Assembly (NCBI GenBank): GCA_934621605.1
Contig: CAKTUZ010000010.1
Location: 14,580 to 78,579 of the forward strand
From: an uncultured bacterium
GTDB lineage: Bacteria; Vulcanimicrobiota; Xenobia; Xenobiales; Xenobiaceae
Reading direction: 5' to 3'
Length of the DNA: 64,000 bases
Shown: positions 24,001-30,000 of the stretch, one piece after another
Position numbering within the stretch: the first letter of the stretch is position 1
How the letters are laid out: every line of letters begins with the position of its first letter
Position numbers: made by a program

Positions 24001-27000
24001 AGTAAACGCTACCGAGACAGAATTGCCAGAATATAACTTTGCAGCAACTCCTCCCTTAGCTGCCAATACTTCAAAGCCGGAACTTATACAGGAATACACT
24101 GCTGAAGAAGTATCAGAAACCGACACTGAAGCCAAACAGGCTCCTTCTTGCTGTAGTAATTCAGCAGACATTACGACCGAACAGCCCGACAATACTGCCA
24201 TCCACCAGTCGAACGATGTCGAATATACTCAGCCTGAAGACGACCAACCGGAAAATTTATCGACGAGCCACAGTGAAGACGAGCCGCAATCATATGTAGA
24301 GGAATACCCTCACCAGGACTTGACTCAGCAGAGCGAAGCACAACCATATGTAGAGGAATACCCTCACCAGGACTTGACTCAGCAGAGCGAAGCACAACCA
24401 TATGTAGAGGAATACTCTCACCAGGACTTGACTCAGCAGAGCGAAGCACAACCATATGTAGAGGAATACTCTCACCAGGACTTGACTCAGCAGAGCGAAG
24501 CACAACCATCTGCCACAGCAGCCACGCCGATTCCTCAGGATGCCCCCAAATCTGATGTGCCTTTATACGATCCTCAAGACAAATTTGGCAATATGACCAG
24601 CCCTTGGAGCTACGAATGTGACTACGCTATCGATTACGAGAGTGGAAATCGTCGCGGCCAAAGAGTAGCCTTATTAGCTTCGGAATTGGACTCTGAACGC
24701 ACTTTTACTATCGGATCACCCGGCGAGCGTGTCAACGATATTGAAGTTGACGAATCAACTGTAGCTAATGATCAAGCTTTGCTGCGTTACAATAACGGAC
24801 GCTTCACTTTGATCAACTTCCAGGAAGACATCAAAATCAATAAGCGCATTGTAACTTGTGGCGAGCAAGTCAATTTAATGACTGGTGATGAAATTACTTT
24901 AGGCAGTACTACGCTGGTTTTCAGAGAGCGCTGCGTCAGTGAAGCATTGGCTGAATATTCAATAAATGTTATAGAAGGCGCTAAAACTGATTTGGGTAAA
25001 TCCTTCCCTTTAACCAAACAGCGCTCCTCTATAGGCCGTGACCGCTATTCCGATATTCCGCTTACTGATCAGGAAATCAGCCGCCATCACTGTACCTTAA
25101 CTTTCCGCGCAGGTAAATTTATCTTACAGCATCGCTCTGATACCAATCCTACCTTTATTAACGGTGTCTCCGTACCAGTTGGCGGTGAGCGTCAGATCAC
25201 TACCGATGATAAAATTCAAATTTCCAGTCGTACAATTTTACAATTGATAAAATACTGATCTACATAAGACGAGGTTAATTTTGCTATGCCCGAAGCTAAA
25301 ATTGCTAATTTAAGTATAGAAGACAAAGCAGCTCAGCTGATTATGATCGATATTCCCGATCGGGAGTTGGGAGACAAGAGTATCAATCATTTGCATACTC
25401 ACGCTTGGAATGGCGTTATCCTCTTTGCCAAAAATGTTAAAGATCGCCGCCAGGTAAACCAACTTATAAAAGATATCCACAAAAATGCCAAAGCAACTCC
25501 CTTTATAGCTGTCGATCAAGAAGGTGGTTTGGTAGATCGTTTCCGCTATCCGGAAATGAGCTTATCTCCCGGTGCGATGGCTTTAGGCGTAACTGCCGAC
25601 AGTGAAGACAATGTTTACAAAACTCACCGCATTATGGGTGAAGAATTGCGGGATTTAGGCATTCATATTGATTTTGCTCCCTGCCTAGACGTTAATAATA
25701 ATCCCCGCAACCCTATTATCGGCGTGCGCTCCTTTTCTGCCAATCCACATAAAGTTGCAAGCTTGGGTTGTGCAGCTATTCGCGGTCTCCGGGACGGCGG
25801 CGTCATTCCTACAGCCAAACATTTTCCCGGCCATGGCAATACCGACACCGATTCACATTTAGCTTTACCATCCATAAAGGGCACTCGTCAACAACTTGAA
25901 ACTACAGAGCTTATTCCGTTTAAAGCTGCTATCAAAGAAAATGTGGAAGCCATTATGACAGCCCATATCGTTTTTCCCGCTTTAGACGCCAAACTGCCTG
26001 CCACTCTTTCCAAGACAATTTTAACCGGACTCTTACGCCAAGAGCTGGGTTACGAGGGAGTAATCGTTACCGATTCTCTATCTATGAAGTCGATAGCCAA
26101 TACTTGGGGCTTTGGCGAAGCCACAGTTATGTCCATAGAAGCCGGCGCTGATTTGGTTCTGGCTTTAGGCACTTTTGAACAGCAGCTAGAATCTCTTAAT
26201 GCGTTGATAGAAGCAGTAAAAAATGGACGTATCAGCGAAAAACGTTTGGATGAATCCTTGATCCGCTTAGAGAAACTGCGCCGCAATCATCAGGAACTTC
26301 CTCAAGAAGAGATAAAACACACCGAAGAGCACCACGCTGTTATGAGTACAATTATTGCTCAAACTGCTGTAATTTTGCGCAACCATAACAACTTATTACC
26401 TCTGCACTTGCCCCAAGACGCTAAAGTGGCAGTTGTTTCTCCTGATTTGCTGCCTCAGAGCCCTCTGGGAGAAGTTTCCCGATCTCTCAATCTAGCTCCC
26501 CTGTTAGCGAAATATGGAATCGAAGCTAAAGAATTTAAGTTTAATATGGCCAGTTTCGGCCCGCCTTTAAATCAATTAGTCCGCGATTTGCAAGGATTCG
26601 ATTATGTGATTTTAGCTCTTTATGCCCGAGGTCAGCTTTCCGATTCACAAAAAGAGTTAGCCCGAGAAATTCCTCAAGTGTGCGCTAATACTGTTGTGCT
26701 CCCTCTTTCCAGTCCATATTTCTTAGAAGATATGGATTGGATCGGTACAGCTGTAACTGCTTATAATTATAGCCAAGCCTCTCTGGACGCAGCCTTAGCT
26801 AAAATTTTTGCTTAAAAATCAAGTTGTAGCCTACATGAAAATACTGTCCGCTCGAATTGGACAGTATTTTTTTGCGTTATAAAAAGAAAAAAGCGTCAAA
26901 CGACCGAAACGGATGACGCTTCTAGAACTAATTATGCGAAAATTACTAACTATGTGGAGGGAAAATAGCTATAAATTTTACAATACCATTTTCAACCTGG

Positions 27001-30000
27001 AATCCCAAACCGAGATTTTTATAAGCATAAAAAGATTGTTTGGGTTGACTTTTTGCTGTAGGCAATTCGTGAGCTAAATAATTGTTGCCGTAAGCGGCTA
27101 TAAATTTCGCCTGCGGGTCGCCCACCTGAATACCTTTGGAAGTGACAATACCCGGCTTATCAATATAAATTTGATAAATAGCCGCACTACTGTCGTAATT
27201 TACTTGTACACCGTTCAAATAATAAATCCAAAACGGACGCTTATGACCGACAAAAGCATGATCAGCATTGGGATTGCGCTGTACAATTTGCTCACATTTA
27301 GTAATAGACATACCTATATTTAAGGGGCCTACACCTTTGCCGGGACGCACATCCCAGTTGCTCTGAGCAACGGCAGCGCTGACTAAAAATCCCACAGCCA
27401 CAACCACGGCCAAAATCAGTCTGCTTATCTTACGCATAAAATCTTCCTTTGCCAGCCTGAATATACTTCTTAACCTTTATCCATCTACTTCCTCAGCAGC
27501 AGAGAACTTCCAGTATAGGTAAATTAAAGCCAAAACTTAGCGCTTTGTTTTCTCAGCCAACGGCCTCTTTCCTCTGCAAATTACTTCTCTTCACCTATCA
27601 CTTCCATACGGTTGCGCAGAATATAATCTTTGCGATTGTAATATTCATTGCGTAAAACGTCACACTCGGCTAAAGCCTGACGAAATGCGGCAACAGTAGT
27701 GTAAGTGTGAGAAGGGATATGTTCTTCAGTCTGTTCATACTCTGTATAACTATGAGATGTACCATAACTGCTGAACGTTGAACTTGAAAAAGTCTTACTC
27801 TTCGGAGTTTTTTCACTGGACAGAGTGGCCAAAGCAGCCAATACTTGATGACGCTTGGTAATATAATCCATATATACATTGTGCAACTCACGAATAGCAC
27901 TACTCTGTGAAGTAACTTCTCCAGCTACAGAAAGCAAAGTCTGGCTAACCGGCATAGCATTTTTATCCAAGAAACGACTAAGTTCGGCAAATGAAAGCTT
28001 GTTGCTTTGAATAATCAAATAACGCAAATCGTTATCATATTTTTCAGCAGCTTTCATTTTGTAAAGATAATCATTGACGATTTTATTAACTCGCGTTTTA
28101 TCAATAAGTTGAATTTCCGCTCGATTATTTAAATCGACAACTTCGTATTTTACTTCTGGCTGACGCTCAGCTTGAGCCGGCATGGTTACAAAAGCGCTTC
28201 CTACAACCAAAACTATAGTCGCACCAATAATTCCATATAATTTATTTTTATTCATCTTATCCTCTACTAAAAAAGCAGAGTAACAAAACGGCAACATAAA
28301 AACCGACTTGCTCCTCTGCTTAGATTTACCCAAAAGGCGCTCCTAGAACTTACTTTCCACTAAGTCACCATTTTTGATCTTATTATCAGCTTCAACTTTT
28401 ATAACTTGACATTCACTGGCTTCACTGTCAACATTGATAACCTGAACCTCAGCTACAGTCCTCTTAATTTTAATACTGCCCTTTTGTTCGTCACGACGTA
28501 CATTAAAGACCATTTTTTGAGTAATACCGTGCTTGGATCCTAAGTTAATATAAACTTTGTCTCCTTCAACATAGGCCACAAAACCGGTGTATTTAACCTT
28601 AGCAGGCAAAGATTTGAATTTTACAGTATTGAGCTGGTCGGCCAAATCTTTGGCGATAGCATAATAAACATTGCCCATAGCACTGTCAGAAGAGGTACTT
28701 TTATTTGAGCTTGATCTAATAATGCCGACATTGGTACTGCTGCTTCCTTTACCAATTTCGATATTTCTACGGCAGCTGGCAGTAGCGACAATACGAGCGG
28801 ACTCACTGTCCAAAACTTTCACTTCAATAGAAACTTTAGCAACATCGGGAGCCTTGCTCGATCCGCCTACGCCGAACATAGAGAACGAACTGCTTTTGCC
28901 TCTTTCTACAGCGAATTCTGTAATTTTACCTGTAATAAGATACTCTACTCCCAAAAGCTGCTTCATACGGGCGGCACTTTCAGCAGTAACAGCTCCGCTG
29001 GCTCCTAAGTTTTGCTCTTTGAGCACTAATTCCAGTTGCTCACGCTCAATAACGCTAAAACGATCAGAATTGGCCAATTCAGTAGTTAAAATAGCCGGAA
29101 TAGATTGACCGACTTCGGTAGTATTAGCATTTCTGAATCCGGAATTATTGGTATCAAAATCTAGCACTGCGACAGTGTAAGGGCCATCAGAGGCAGGAGT
29201 ATTTTGTGCTTGAGCCATCAAAGGCAACCAGAAACACCCCAAAGTTAAAACTAATAACGATAGGAAGAGCTTATTGCGAAAATTCATAATCGGGCTCCTG
29301 AAGAGAATATTGGCAATTTATTATGCAGCTACGCAAATACAAGCCAGAAATGTACCATTTAATGCACTAAAAAAGGCTATTGCCGCTACACACCGACATT
29401 ATACTATAACTACGTTAATAAGCATAGTATTATAATAATGTATACAAAATAATGGGCAATTATGTCTAAACCCCAAAACAGTCTCTATTCTTCCCCAGTG
29501 AGCAGGTGAGACCGCTACTTCTACGAAAAGAAGACTTGCGAAGTTGTCAAACTCTGGGACGACATCTTGCTGGAGCCGAGTGTTTGGCAATCTGCTTATT
29601 CTACTTTAAGTTGGAGAATAGTTTCGTATGATTAACATAAAGAAATTGCTTGACAAAGCCGAGTTAGAGTACGAGGTTGATGACGATGGCGATTATCAAG
29701 TTGTCCTGAGTTTAGCTGAGGATGATGAAGACGAAGATGAAGCTCGTACTCAAGTGGTAGTTGTCGGTACCGAAGCCCAAGAAGCTGGCTGTGCTGAATT
29801 CATCCACATCTATTCCAAAGCTGCCGATATTGACGATGTTCCCGAAGAAGATTTACTCGAATTACTCAAAGAGAACAGCGATTTTTCCTGCGGTGCTTGG
29901 GAAGTAGCTGGCGATCACTTGCTCTTCAATTGCAAAGTATTGGCTAATGATTTGTCCAGTGACGAGCTTTTAGATATCATCTCTATTGCCGCCAGAACTG

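What the first reader, a model, noticed from the sequence alone, without database searches (positions are those of the whole stretch)
26946..29287. CsgG-like channel gene followed by two secreted proteins of unknown function
The minus-strand operon runs CsgG-family protein (314 aa), then a 224-aa signal-peptide protein, then a 163-aa signal-peptide protein, bounded by a terminator at 26881-26921. I see no CsgA/B/E/F-like curli subunits, so the channel may export a different substrate. Candidates are the two downstream secreted proteins (the 224-aa one is rich in S/T/Y in its second half). CsgG/HfaB-type channels outside curli operons are poorly characterised.
Basis: partly seen in the sequence, partly recalled or inferred. 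Interest (0 to 1): 0.5.

Follow-up and report, generated by a model that had tools for sequence, protein, structure and literature searches.

The report
CsgG-like ring protein plus helical partner
An uncultured gut bacterium (Xenobia lineage) carries a conserved two-gene envelope module with no link to curli: a secreted CsgG/FlgT-like ring-type protein and a secreted four-helix-bundle partner; the third gene is an unrelated neighbour, and whether the first protein is a membrane channel remains untested.

Summary
The three minus-strand ORFs, their sizes, their signal peptides and the downstream terminator are all real. The 314-aa protein (A) passes Pfam CsgG (100.9 bits). The 64-kb window holds no curli genes.

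The reading as an operon of a channel plus two cargoes holds only in part.
- A belongs to a widespread, uncharacterised CsgG-family subgroup with an extra C-terminal FlgT_C-like beta-barrel.
- This subgroup mostly lacks the lipoprotein cysteine: 44 of 52 members have no lipobox.
- A's closest solved structure is the flagellar H-ring protein FlgT, ahead of CsgG.
- A has two CsgG-length hairpin inserts, but the second is very polar, so a membrane-spanning barrel is unproven.

The 224-aa protein (B) is a secreted four-helix bundle from a tiny family restricted to this lineage. In all 12 distinct loci found, B sits directly after A or after A's remnant. The pair occurs in at least three genomic contexts. 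One natural deletion removes both genes. A conserved terminator-like hairpin separates them.

The 163-aa protein (C) is independent: its relatives sit elsewhere without A and B.

Most likely, A forms an envelope ring that B docks on. Export of B through A is possible but less likely. Interest is modest.

The parts
28343..29287 (-). Gene A: 314-aa secreted CsgG/HfaB-family protein with FlgT-like two-domain architecture
   Evidence: ORF. Pfam CsgG at 100.9 bits. Homologues at 53-99% identity in Xenobia/UBP9 MAGs, two of which NCBI names 'CsgG/HfaB family protein'. AF2 model with pLDDT 77.9.
29207..29287 (-). A signal peptide (residues 1-27, MNFRNKLFLSLLVLTLGCFWLPLMAQA|QN). Cys18 sits in a poor lipobox that is not conserved. 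The AXA signal-peptidase I site is conserved.
   Evidence: Sequence. Survey of 52 family members. The cleavage site is inferred by eye.
28616..29200 (-). A alpha/beta CsgG-like domain (residues 30-224). It carries two hairpin inserts (about residues 128-153 and 176-200) at the positions of the CsgG TM1 and TM2 hairpins.
   Evidence: Pfam stretch 30-224. phmmer alignment to E. coli CsgG with an equal-length TM1 region. Model strands 132-137 and 140-145 at pLDDT about 60-70; residues 184-198 at pLDDT below 50. Composition.
28352..28588 (-). A C-terminal beta-barrel domain (residues 234-312), FlgT_C-like
28267..28321 (-). Conserved stem-loop plus U-tract between A and B (terminator-like attenuator), ending about 10 nt before the B ribosome-binding site
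   Evidence: The 101-nt A-B spacer folds at -28.8 kcal/mol, z -2.1. Consensus fold over 5 loci gives 16 pairs, 4 of them with compensatory changes. Alignment.
27581..28255 (-). Gene B: 224-aa secreted four-helix-bundle partner of A, from a lineage-restricted family distantly related to EMYY-motif lipoproteins
   Evidence: only 9 clusters at E below 1e-10 among 1.84 billion representatives. (fold). (9 of 13 members hit lipo_EMYY weakly, best E 8e-8). (always follows A).
28169..28255 (-). B signal peptide (residues 1-29, ...PAQA|ER). A29 and E30 are invariant across the family.
   Evidence: Alignments. The cleavage site is inferred by eye.
27698..27814 (-). B S/T/Y-rich hypervariable segment (residues 148-186), modelled as a low-confidence beta-hairpin inserted in the bundle
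   Evidence: 54% S/T/Y. Variable in length and sequence across the family. Model pLDDT about 54-61.
26946..27437 (-). Gene C: 163-aa secreted protein of unknown family. It is an adjacent but independent gene, not part of the A-B module.
   Evidence: Found in other contexts without A-B. Retained where A-B is deleted. Weak IsaB_fam hits only.
26879..26923 (-). Intrinsic-terminator-like hairpin plus U-run after C
   Evidence: -17.7 kcal/mol, z -2.7. Sequence.
29432..29487 (-). Two overlapping sigma-70-like promoter matches about 145-200 nt upstream of the A start codon
   Evidence: These are consensus matches only (9 of 12 positions) and are not evidence of function.

Best explanation
A and B form a two-gene cell-envelope module of gut and rumen Xenobia (formerly UBP9; phylum Vulcanimicrobiota/Eremiobacterota).

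A is exported by Sec and cut by signal peptidase I, so it carries no lipid anchor. It folds into a CsgG/TolB-N-type alpha/beta domain plus a FlgT_C-type beta-barrel. Like every structurally characterised relative of that fold that assembles (CsgG 9-mer, PelC 12-mer, FlgT 26-mer), it most likely forms a ring at or under the outer membrane (inferred).

B is exported separately, folds into a four-helix bundle, and docks on the A ring as a lineage-specific adaptor or cap. It is probably made in equal or lower amount than A, because all transcription of B must pass a conserved terminator-like hairpin (inferred).

The module has nothing to do with curli. C is an unrelated secreted neighbour.

Shown here: family and fold assignments, the absence of a conserved lipobox, strict A-B synteny, joint loss of A and B, the independence of C, and the conserved hairpin.
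Inferred: ring formation, A-B binding and stoichiometry.
For: - Pfam CsgG at 100.9 bits.
- AF2 model of A has two domains.
- FlgT forms a 26-mer ring, and the C-terminal tail of FlgP docks in a groove of that ring. FlgT_C-like domains also build the TsaP ring around PilQ.
- 44 of 52 family members have no lipobox, while the AXA site is conserved.
- B directly follows A or its remnant in all 12 distinct loci, in at least 3 unrelated genomic contexts.
- A roughly 1-kb natural deletion removes A from codon 47 through B codon 18 and leaves C intact. The resulting truncated ORF, P0110, is recorded on 17 contigs.
- The B family is confined to this lineage, whereas distant A relatives are stand-alone genes.
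- B is a well-conserved helical bundle with invariant N- and C-terminal motifs.
- The hairpin plus U-tract between A and B is conserved, with compensatory changes.
- The only cultured member of the phylum has an outer membrane, and MAGs of the phylum encode BamA and LPS synthesis. Lgt is in the window, and Lnt lies next to an A-B pair in L007.
Against: - No oligomer was modelled and nothing experimental exists. Ring formation and A-B contact rest on analogy and synteny.
- The AF2 models are only moderate (pLDDT 75-78, pTM about 0.6). The B alignment had just 5 sequences.
- The outer membrane has not been verified for the Xenobia class itself.
- The hairpin could be an mRNA-stabilising or processing element rather than an attenuator.
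- B evolves about twice as fast as A (55% against 75% identity at the Bruticola distance). That also fits a surface-exposed cargo.
- A keeps two inserts of CsgG TM1/TM2 length, including the conserved FGxGG motif, so a pore cannot be excluded.
Confidence: 0.5

Rival explanations
1. A is a true CsgG-type outer-membrane pore: its two hairpin inserts build a composite beta-barrel. It exports B unfolded to the cell surface, where B folds into a helical bundle with an exposed, variable S/T/Y-rich hairpin.
For: - Pfam CsgG is well above cut-off.
- Insert 1 has the same length as E. coli TM1 and shares its FGxG(G/A) motif. Insert 2 is only about 3 residues shorter than TM2.
- Both inserts are strongly conserved within the clade.
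- The loop at the position of the CsgG constriction keeps one aromatic residue followed by polar residues in 10 of 11 clade members. That echoes the phi-clamp plus H-bond ring described for CsgG.
- Channel widespread but partner lineage-specific is the usual pattern for channel and cargo.
- B evolves faster than A and has a hypervariable segment.
Against: - There is no conserved lipid anchor. Non-lipidated E. coli CsgG is deposited as a soluble 'pre-pore' (entry title of 4uv2).
- Insert 2 has 5 hydrophobic and 0 aromatic residues out of 25.
- Insert 2 is modelled with pLDDT below 50.
- The constriction loop is 4 residues shorter than in E. coli CsgG and lacks a Phe56 equivalent in the alignment.
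- The gene order, channel first then a terminator-like hairpin then B, is the opposite of what a bulk cargo would need.
- B is a highly conserved, compact fold, not a repeat or amyloid protein.
- There is no CsgE-like factor to drive transport.
Confidence: 0.2
2. A is a general periplasmic scaffold or regulator of some other envelope machine, as FlgT is for the flagellar LP-ring, TsaP for PilQ, LpoB for PBP1b and PelC for PelB. B works in that same process. A makes no channel and B is not secreted.
For: - The best structural matches are non-channel members of the fold (FlgT, CT253, PelC, TolB-N).
- The C-terminal domain is the ring-building FlgT_C/TsaP type.
- Distant A relatives are stand-alone genes in non-flagellated cyanobacteria and other phyla.
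- The window encodes PilB/PilT-type ATPases and PBP2/RodA about 12-18 kb away.
Against: - No candidate client machine is adjacent in any of the contexts examined.
- Pfam FlgT_M, FlgT_C, LpoB and TolB_N scores are far weaker than the CsgG score.
- The two conserved CsgG-type inserts are absent from the much shorter PelC, LpoB and TolB-N matches. I infer this from aligned lengths of 107-130 residues for those proteins, against 159 for CsgG.
Confidence: 0.2
3. All three genes form one functional operon, and C is a second cargo or accessory factor of A.
For: - The genes share a strand.
- The 143-nt B-C spacer has no terminator-like structure, and one terminator follows C. Read-through co-transcription in this genome is therefore likely.
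- C is secreted.
Against: - C homologues at 59% and 64% identity lie in other contexts without A-B.
- The A-B pairs in L005/L016, L007, L018 and L026 have no C.
- C is retained intact where A-B is deleted.
- C is more conserved than B.
Confidence: 0.05

Closest known systems
CsgG (curli secretion channel, E. coli; PDB 4UV3, 4Q79, 6L7A)
   Same: - Same Pfam family (PF03783, 100.9 bits).
- Two inserts at the positions of the TM1 and TM2 hairpins, of nearly the same length.
- Shared FGxG(G/A) motif in insert 1.
   Different: - No conserved lipoprotein cysteine.
- 18.5 bits against the 505-bit cut-off of the NCBIfam CsgG equivalog model.
- The constriction loop is 4 residues shorter and variable.
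- Insert 2 is polar.
- It has an extra C-terminal beta-barrel domain.
- No csgA/B/E/F genes nearby; the partner is an all-helical protein.
FlgT (Vibrio flagellar H-ring protein; PDB 3W1E, 8Z5N)
   Same: - Same order of a TolB-N/CsgG-like M domain followed by a beta-roll C domain.
- FlgT is a Sec-exported, non-channel protein that forms a ring. A partner protein, FlgP, docks on that ring through its C-terminal tail.
   Different: - Pfam FlgT_M (23.7 bits) and FlgT_C (16.6 bits) are below their cut-offs.
- Whether A has an equivalent of the FlgT N domain was not established. A is 314 aa against about 355, and domain boundaries were not mapped.
- No flagellar genes are nearby.
- The A family also occurs in cyanobacteria.
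- Domain orientation differs from FlgT (rmsd about 17 A, TM-score about 0.35).
HfaB (Caulobacter holdfast-anchor secretion protein, the other named member of the 'CsgG/HfaB family')
   Same: - NCBI names the closest homologues 'CsgG/HfaB family protein'.
- It is a non-curli CsgG relative encoded next to its small secreted partners. The hfaABD operon is recalled from memory.
   Different: - From memory, HfaB is a lipoprotein and its partners HfaA and HfaD are curlin-like or anchor proteins. B is helical.
PelC (Pel polysaccharide export lipoprotein ring; PDB 5T10, 9H80)
   Different: - PelC is a short single-domain lipoprotein.
- It has no hairpin inserts and no C-terminal barrel.
- It works with the PelB barrel, and no PelB-like gene is present here.
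EMYY-motif lipoprotein family (NCBIfam NF033194, Pfam PF28025), as the closest relative of B
   Same: - 9 of 13 B-family members hit the model weakly (best E 8e-8) over the third helix and its flanks (B residues 82-142).
- A Firmicute-type lipoprotein, P0132, carries two copies of the same helix motif.
   Different: - Scores are far below cut-off (19 against 100 bits).
- B has a signal-peptidase I signal, not a lipobox.
- The EMYY family has no known function, so the link gives no mechanism.

Membership tests
CsgG (Pfam PF03783, broad CsgG/HfaB family) | Match to the family HMM above the curated gathering score | tested here: met
   100.9 bits against 20.8, E 7.9e-29, residues 30-224. Homologues score likewise.
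CsgG curli channel (NCBIfam equivalog PRK15184) | Match above the equivalog cut-off, meaning the same function as E. coli CsgG | tested here: not met
   18.5 bits against a cut-off of 505. PDB phmmer against E. coli CsgG gives only E 0.005.
CsgG curli channel | Lipoprotein: lipobox with Cys as first mature residue | tested here: not met
   - A has Cys18 in TLGC, which passes only a permissive pattern. It is followed by more hydrophobic residues and an AQA|QN site.
- The Cys is absent in clade members P0009 (no lipobox context), P0010 and P0012.
- 44 of 52 family members have no lipobox at all.
- This is a pattern-based test; no LipoP or SignalP was run.
CsgG curli channel | Two transmembrane beta-hairpins (TM1, TM2) that build a 36-stranded barrel in a nonamer | tested here: inconclusive
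   - The inserts are present at both positions. Insert 1 has the same length as TM1 and shares the FGxGG motif.
- Insert 2 is about 3 residues shorter than TM2, has 5 of 25 hydrophobic residues and no aromatics, and is modelled at pLDDT below 50.
- Oligomer prediction was not possible with these tools.
CsgG curli channel | Constriction loop with stacked Tyr51, Asn55 and Phe56 rings (phi-clamp plus H-bond ring) | tested here: inconclusive
   - The loop is 4 residues shorter than in E. coli CsgG. Asn aligns but Phe56 is deleted.
- The loop varies across the clade, but one F or Y followed by polar residues is kept in 10 of 11 members.
CsgG curli channel | Genomic association with csgA/csgB (curlin repeats) and csgE/csgF | tested here: not met
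   - No such Pfam hit among the window's ORFs of at least 120 aa (overlapping ones left out), nor in the flanks of relatives.
- The rest of the genome could not be searched.
FlgT (flagellar H-ring) | FlgT_M and FlgT_C HMMs above cut-off | tested here: not met
   FlgT_M scores 23.7 bits against 31.2. FlgT_C scores 16.6 against 27. FlgT_C reaches 30.5 bits in homologue P0016.
FlgT (flagellar H-ring) | M-plus-C two-domain fold resembling solved FlgT | tested here: met
   [not shown]
FlgT (flagellar H-ring) | Flagellar gene neighbourhood or flagellated host | tested here: not met
   No flagellar genes were found in the window or in any related locus. Homologues are common in cyanobacteria.
CsgE / CsgF accessory factors (for B and C) | HMM match or matching fold | tested here: not met
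   Neither B, nor C, nor their family members match CsgE or CsgF in Pfam. B is an all-alpha four-helix bundle.
Curlin / amyloid subunit (CsgA, CsgB, HfaA-like) (for B and C) | Imperfect Q/N-rich beta-solenoid repeats; Curlin_rpt HMM | tested here: not met
   No Curlin_rpt hit. B is modelled as a helical bundle with one short low-confidence hairpin.
EMYY-motif lipoprotein (NF033194 / PF28025) (for B) | HMM above cut-off, and a lipoprotein signal | tested here: not met
   19.1 bits against 100 for B. 9 of 13 family members hit weakly, best E 8e-8. The B signal peptide ends in AQA|ER and holds no Cys. The relationship is distant and does not amount to membership.

The most novel reading that the evidence does not exclude
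A would be a new, lipid-anchor-free type of CsgG-like outer-membrane pore in a Terrabacteria diderm. It would export a dedicated ~195-residue helical-bundle protein (B) to the cell surface of a gut symbiont. That would be a minimal two-gene 'type VIII-like' secretion system for a non-amyloid cargo, with the FlgT_C-like domain forming a periplasmic collar.
Probability: 0.15. Interest if true: 0.6.

Novelty: new variant of a known kind. Interest (0 to 1): 0.3.

Why it matters
CsgG-family proteins outside curli operons are very common and almost entirely uncharacterised. This locus gives one subgroup (CsgG domain plus FlgT_C-like barrel, no lipid anchor) something most of its members lack: a strictly linked partner gene that can be used as a handle. 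If A forms a ring and B binds it, the pair is a small, tractable system for asking what non-curli CsgG relatives do. It could be reconstituted and imaged from two genes. It comes from Xenobia, a gut-associated lineage with no reported cultured member in a poorly studied phylum whose cell-envelope biology is essentially unknown. If it is instead only a scaffold with a lineage-specific adaptor, it is an ordinary piece of envelope housekeeping.

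Tried and rejected
- **Curli system:** rejected. There are no curlin, CsgE or CsgF hits among the window's ORFs of at least 120 aa or in relatives' flanks.
- **Three-gene operon as a functional unit:** rejected on synteny.
- **B as a CsgE/F-like or amyloid protein:** rejected on fold.
- **Anti-phage defence system:** no PADLOC hit.
- **Riboswitch or known RNA in the leader or spacers:** Rfam gave only one chance-level match.
- **Mobile or plasmid origin of B:** no tblastn hit in 72,556 plasmids. A transposase does lie upstream of the pair in L005.
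- **PDB sequence relatives of B and C:** none better than E 0.29 and 1.1.
- **Literature:** nothing on 'EMYY' proteins, nothing combining CsgG and HfaB homologues, and no statement on the Xenobia envelope.
- **Foldseek against AFDB:** the library was unavailable.
- **250-aa TTG start for B:** rejected. Homologues start at the ATG, and the extension would contain the hairpin and T-run.

Full report
**Observation**

The three minus-strand ORFs exist as described: A at 28343-29287 (314 aa), B at 27581-28255 (224 aa from the ATG) and C at 26946-27437 (163 aa). A matches Pfam CsgG at 100.9 bits (cut-off 20.8, E 7.9e-29, residues 30-224). It also has a weak FlgT_C-like tail at residues 242-311.

B and C match no Pfam family. 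B gives a weak NCBIfam 'EMYY motif lipoprotein' hit and C a weak IsaB hit.

All three proteins begin with signal-peptide-like segments that end in AXA motifs. I read these by eye. B residues 148-186 are 54% S/T/Y.

The terminator after C is real, although the consensus scan missed it. It folds at -17.7 kcal/mol (z -2.7) and is followed by a U-run.

A Pfam sweep of the window's ORFs of at least 120 aa (overlapping ones left out) found no curlin repeat, CsgE or CsgF. The surroundings are housekeeping genes: the glycine-cleavage genes, lplA, a GH3 hydrolase, several FHA proteins, PBP2/RodA, Lgt and two PilB/PilT-type ATPases.

**Organism**

The nearest named relatives are MAGs of Candidatus Bruticola and 'bacterium UBP9_UBA4705'. 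These belong to class Xenobia of phylum Vulcanimicrobiota/Eremiobacterota and come from primate and human gut and from rumen. The window is 44% G+C.

The only cultured member of the phylum has a typical outer membrane with LPS (PMC9758169). Phylum MAGs encode BamA and LPS synthesis (PMC6664022). The window encodes Lgt, and an A-B pair in L007 sits near Lnt. An outer membrane is therefore likely but was not verified for Xenobia.

**What belongs together**

A profile of the B family was scored against 1.84 billion representative proteins. Only 9 clusters scored below E 1e-10, so B is a tiny, lineage-restricted family.

Scans of genome and metagenome collections with that profile returned 12 distinct loci. 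In every one, A lies directly upstream of B. The single exception is L014, which keeps only a remnant of A and is discussed below.

The pair occurs in at least three unrelated genomic contexts:
- gcv-lplA on one side and GH3 on the other, as in the window
- ruvABC plus a transposase
- an S46 peptidase plus Lnt

C behaves differently. It follows B only in the window-like and Bruticola genomes. It is absent next to the pair in L005/L016, L007, L018 and L026. Its homologues at 59% and 64% identity sit in other places.

In L023 the YbjN-like gene and C are direct divergent neighbours with no A-B between them. In the window, A and B lie between those same two genes.

In L014, a Hadza gut MAG, a roughly 1-kb deletion runs from A codon 47 to B codon 18. 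It destroys both genes and leaves C and the YbjN-like gene intact. The resulting truncated ORF, P0110, is recorded on 17 contigs from several sources, so this is a population variant rather than a single misassembly.

My conclusion is that A-B is a two-gene module and C is an independent neighbour. C may still be co-transcribed here, because the B-C spacer shows no terminator.

**Protein A**

*Subfamily.* The alignment of 52 homologues shows a subfamily with a CsgG domain followed by a beta-rich C-terminal domain of about 80 residues. It is found in cyanobacteria, deltaproteobacteria, gammaproteobacteria and other groups. Distant members are stand-alone genes with no conserved neighbours.

*Fold.* The AF2 model (pLDDT 77.9) has an alpha/beta core at residues 37-221 and a confident beta-barrel at 234-312.

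| Search | Top match | CsgG | Other matches |
|---|---|---|---|
| Foldseek against PDB | FlgT 3w1e, E 2e-16 over 303 columns; FlgT 8z5n, E 2e-15 | E 1e-7 | GNA1162, CT253, LpoB, HpaA, TolB, PelC |

*Tests against CsgG features.*
- The NCBI CsgG equivalog model scores 18.5 bits against a cut-off of 505.
- 44 of 52 family members have no lipobox. The Cys in the window protein's signal peptide is not conserved in its own clade, whereas the AXA site is.
- The insert at the TM1 position has the same length as in E. coli CsgG and shares the FGxG(G/A) motif.
- The insert at the TM2 position is about 3 residues shorter. It has 5 hydrophobic and no aromatic residues out of 25, against 14 and 5 out of 28 in E. 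coli. It is modelled at pLDDT below 50.
- The constriction loop is 4 residues shorter than in E. coli CsgG and variable. It does keep one aromatic residue followed by polar residues in 10 of 11 clade members.
- Both inserts are strongly conserved within the clade, so they are functional elements.

Whether the inserts span a membrane cannot be decided without an oligomer model.

**Protein B**

The AF2 model (pLDDT 74.8, from only 5 sequences) shows a signal peptide and a four-helix bundle, with helices at 45-84, 89-112, 119-147 and 182-214. A low-confidence beta-hairpin at 155-176 corresponds to the S/T/Y-rich segment, which is hypervariable.

B itself has an SPase I site with invariant Ala-Glu at the junction, and a nearly invariant C-terminal tail...RNxxEVIGEEK. 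B diverges about twice as fast as A. At the Bruticola distance it is 55% identical, against 74-76% for A and 79-82% for C.

**Between A and B**

The 87-nt spacer holds a stem-loop followed by a U-tract that ends about 10 nt before B's Shine-Dalgarno sequence. The 101-nt spacer region folds at -28.8 kcal/mol, z -2.1.

The hairpin is conserved in the window-like and Bruticola loci. Four of its 16 pairs show compensatory changes. Any transcript of B must read through it. This suggests attenuation, with A made in at least the amount of B. That is an inference.

**Mechanism**

I commit to the following, with confidence about 0.5. A is a Sec/SPI-exported, non-lipidated CsgG/FlgT-type protein that assembles into a ring at or under the outer membrane. 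B is its lineage-specific periplasmic partner, which docks on the ring as an adaptor or cap.

- Shown: the family and fold assignments, the lack of a conserved lipid anchor, strict synteny, joint loss, the independence of C, and the conserved hairpin.
- Inferred: oligomerisation, A-B contact and stoichiometry.

- For it: the CsgG-length inserts, the semi-conserved aromatic-plus-polar loop, the pattern of a widespread A and a lineage-specific B, and B's fast evolution.
- Against it: the missing lipid anchor, the polar second insert, the gene order with a hairpin before B, and B's compact conserved fold.

A second rival (0.2) is that A is a scaffold for another envelope machine. C as part of the system is unlikely (0.05).

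**Novelty and interest**

A is a member of a known, NCBI-named family (CsgG/HfaB). It belongs to an uncharacterised subgroup that departs from CsgG in three ways: its lipid anchor, its domain architecture and its partner. As far as the held literature shows, the A-B module has not been described.

I rate it a new variant of a known kind, with modest interest (0.3). It offers a tractable two-gene handle on non-curli CsgG relatives in a lineage with no reported cultured member. Nothing in the evidence is very surprising, and the channel question stays open.

Noticed in passing
L014:4857-5150 (Hadza gut MAG CAKUDB010000011.1); corresponds to window about 28200-29150: A natural deletion of about 1 kb joins A codon ~47 to B codon ~18, with an additional frameshift in the A remnant. 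It inactivates both genes while C and the YbjN-like gene stay intact. The truncated B ORF (P0110, 158 aa) is recorded on 17 contigs.
   Followed up: partly
window 28267-28321 (- strand): A conserved terminator-like stem-loop plus U-tract lies between A and B, with compensatory base changes in Bruticola relatives. It may be an attenuator that sets the A:B ratio.
   Followed up: partly
window 22619-25258 (+ strand): An 879-aa protein with two C-terminal FHA/YscD-like domains carries two tandem-repeat arrays. One has 15/30/90-nt units encoding G(F/Y)D(R/W)(D/E)G repeats at 23257-23748. The other has 4.1 copies of a 54-nt unit, 98% identical, at 24287-24509. Orthologues are 612 aa (L001) and 951 aa (L003), so the repeat number varies between strains.
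   Followed up: partly
window 12316-13017, 20806-22524, 22619-25258: Three FHA-domain proteins lie within about 13 kb. One sits directly downstream of RodA/PBP2 (9440-12305), which suggests Ser/Thr-phospho-dependent control of the cell-wall elongation machinery.
   Followed up: no
window 29628-30044 (+ strand): A very acidic 138-aa protein is divergent from A and has a weak YbjN/T3SS-chaperone-like Pfam hit (TY-Chap1, E 3e-4, below cut-off). In L023 its homologue is the direct divergent neighbour of C, so this pair may be the older arrangement.
   Followed up: partly
window 37762-40317 (- strand): An 851-aa protein whose only Pfam match is a Roadblock/LC7 domain at residues 644-720 (23.7 bits, just above cut-off). 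The rest of the protein is unassigned.
   Followed up: no
window 49391-52570 (- strand): A 1059-aa fusion of a NodU/CmcH-type carbamoyltransferase (N- and C-terminal domains) with a C-terminal GDSL-like lipase/acylhydrolase domain.
   Followed up: no
window 47601-49076 (+ strand): A 491-aa protein with a textbook lipobox (…GFVAGC|GDGG) and no Pfam family. It shows what a real lipoprotein signal looks like in this genome, in contrast to A.
   Followed up: no
L010:566-3022: A 32%-identical A-subfamily member (CsgG plus FlgT_C above cut-off) lies divergently next to a small unannotated gene and a germination protease gene (Peptidase_A25). The subfamily may therefore also occur in spore-forming Firmicutes, where an outer membrane may be absent.
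   Followed up: no
window 26946-27437 (C) and alignment A2: Four of 11 C-family members give weak hits to the staphylococcal IsaB family model (best E 1.3e-3) over the C-terminal ~45 residues. These are below threshold, but they are the only lead for C.
   Followed up: partly
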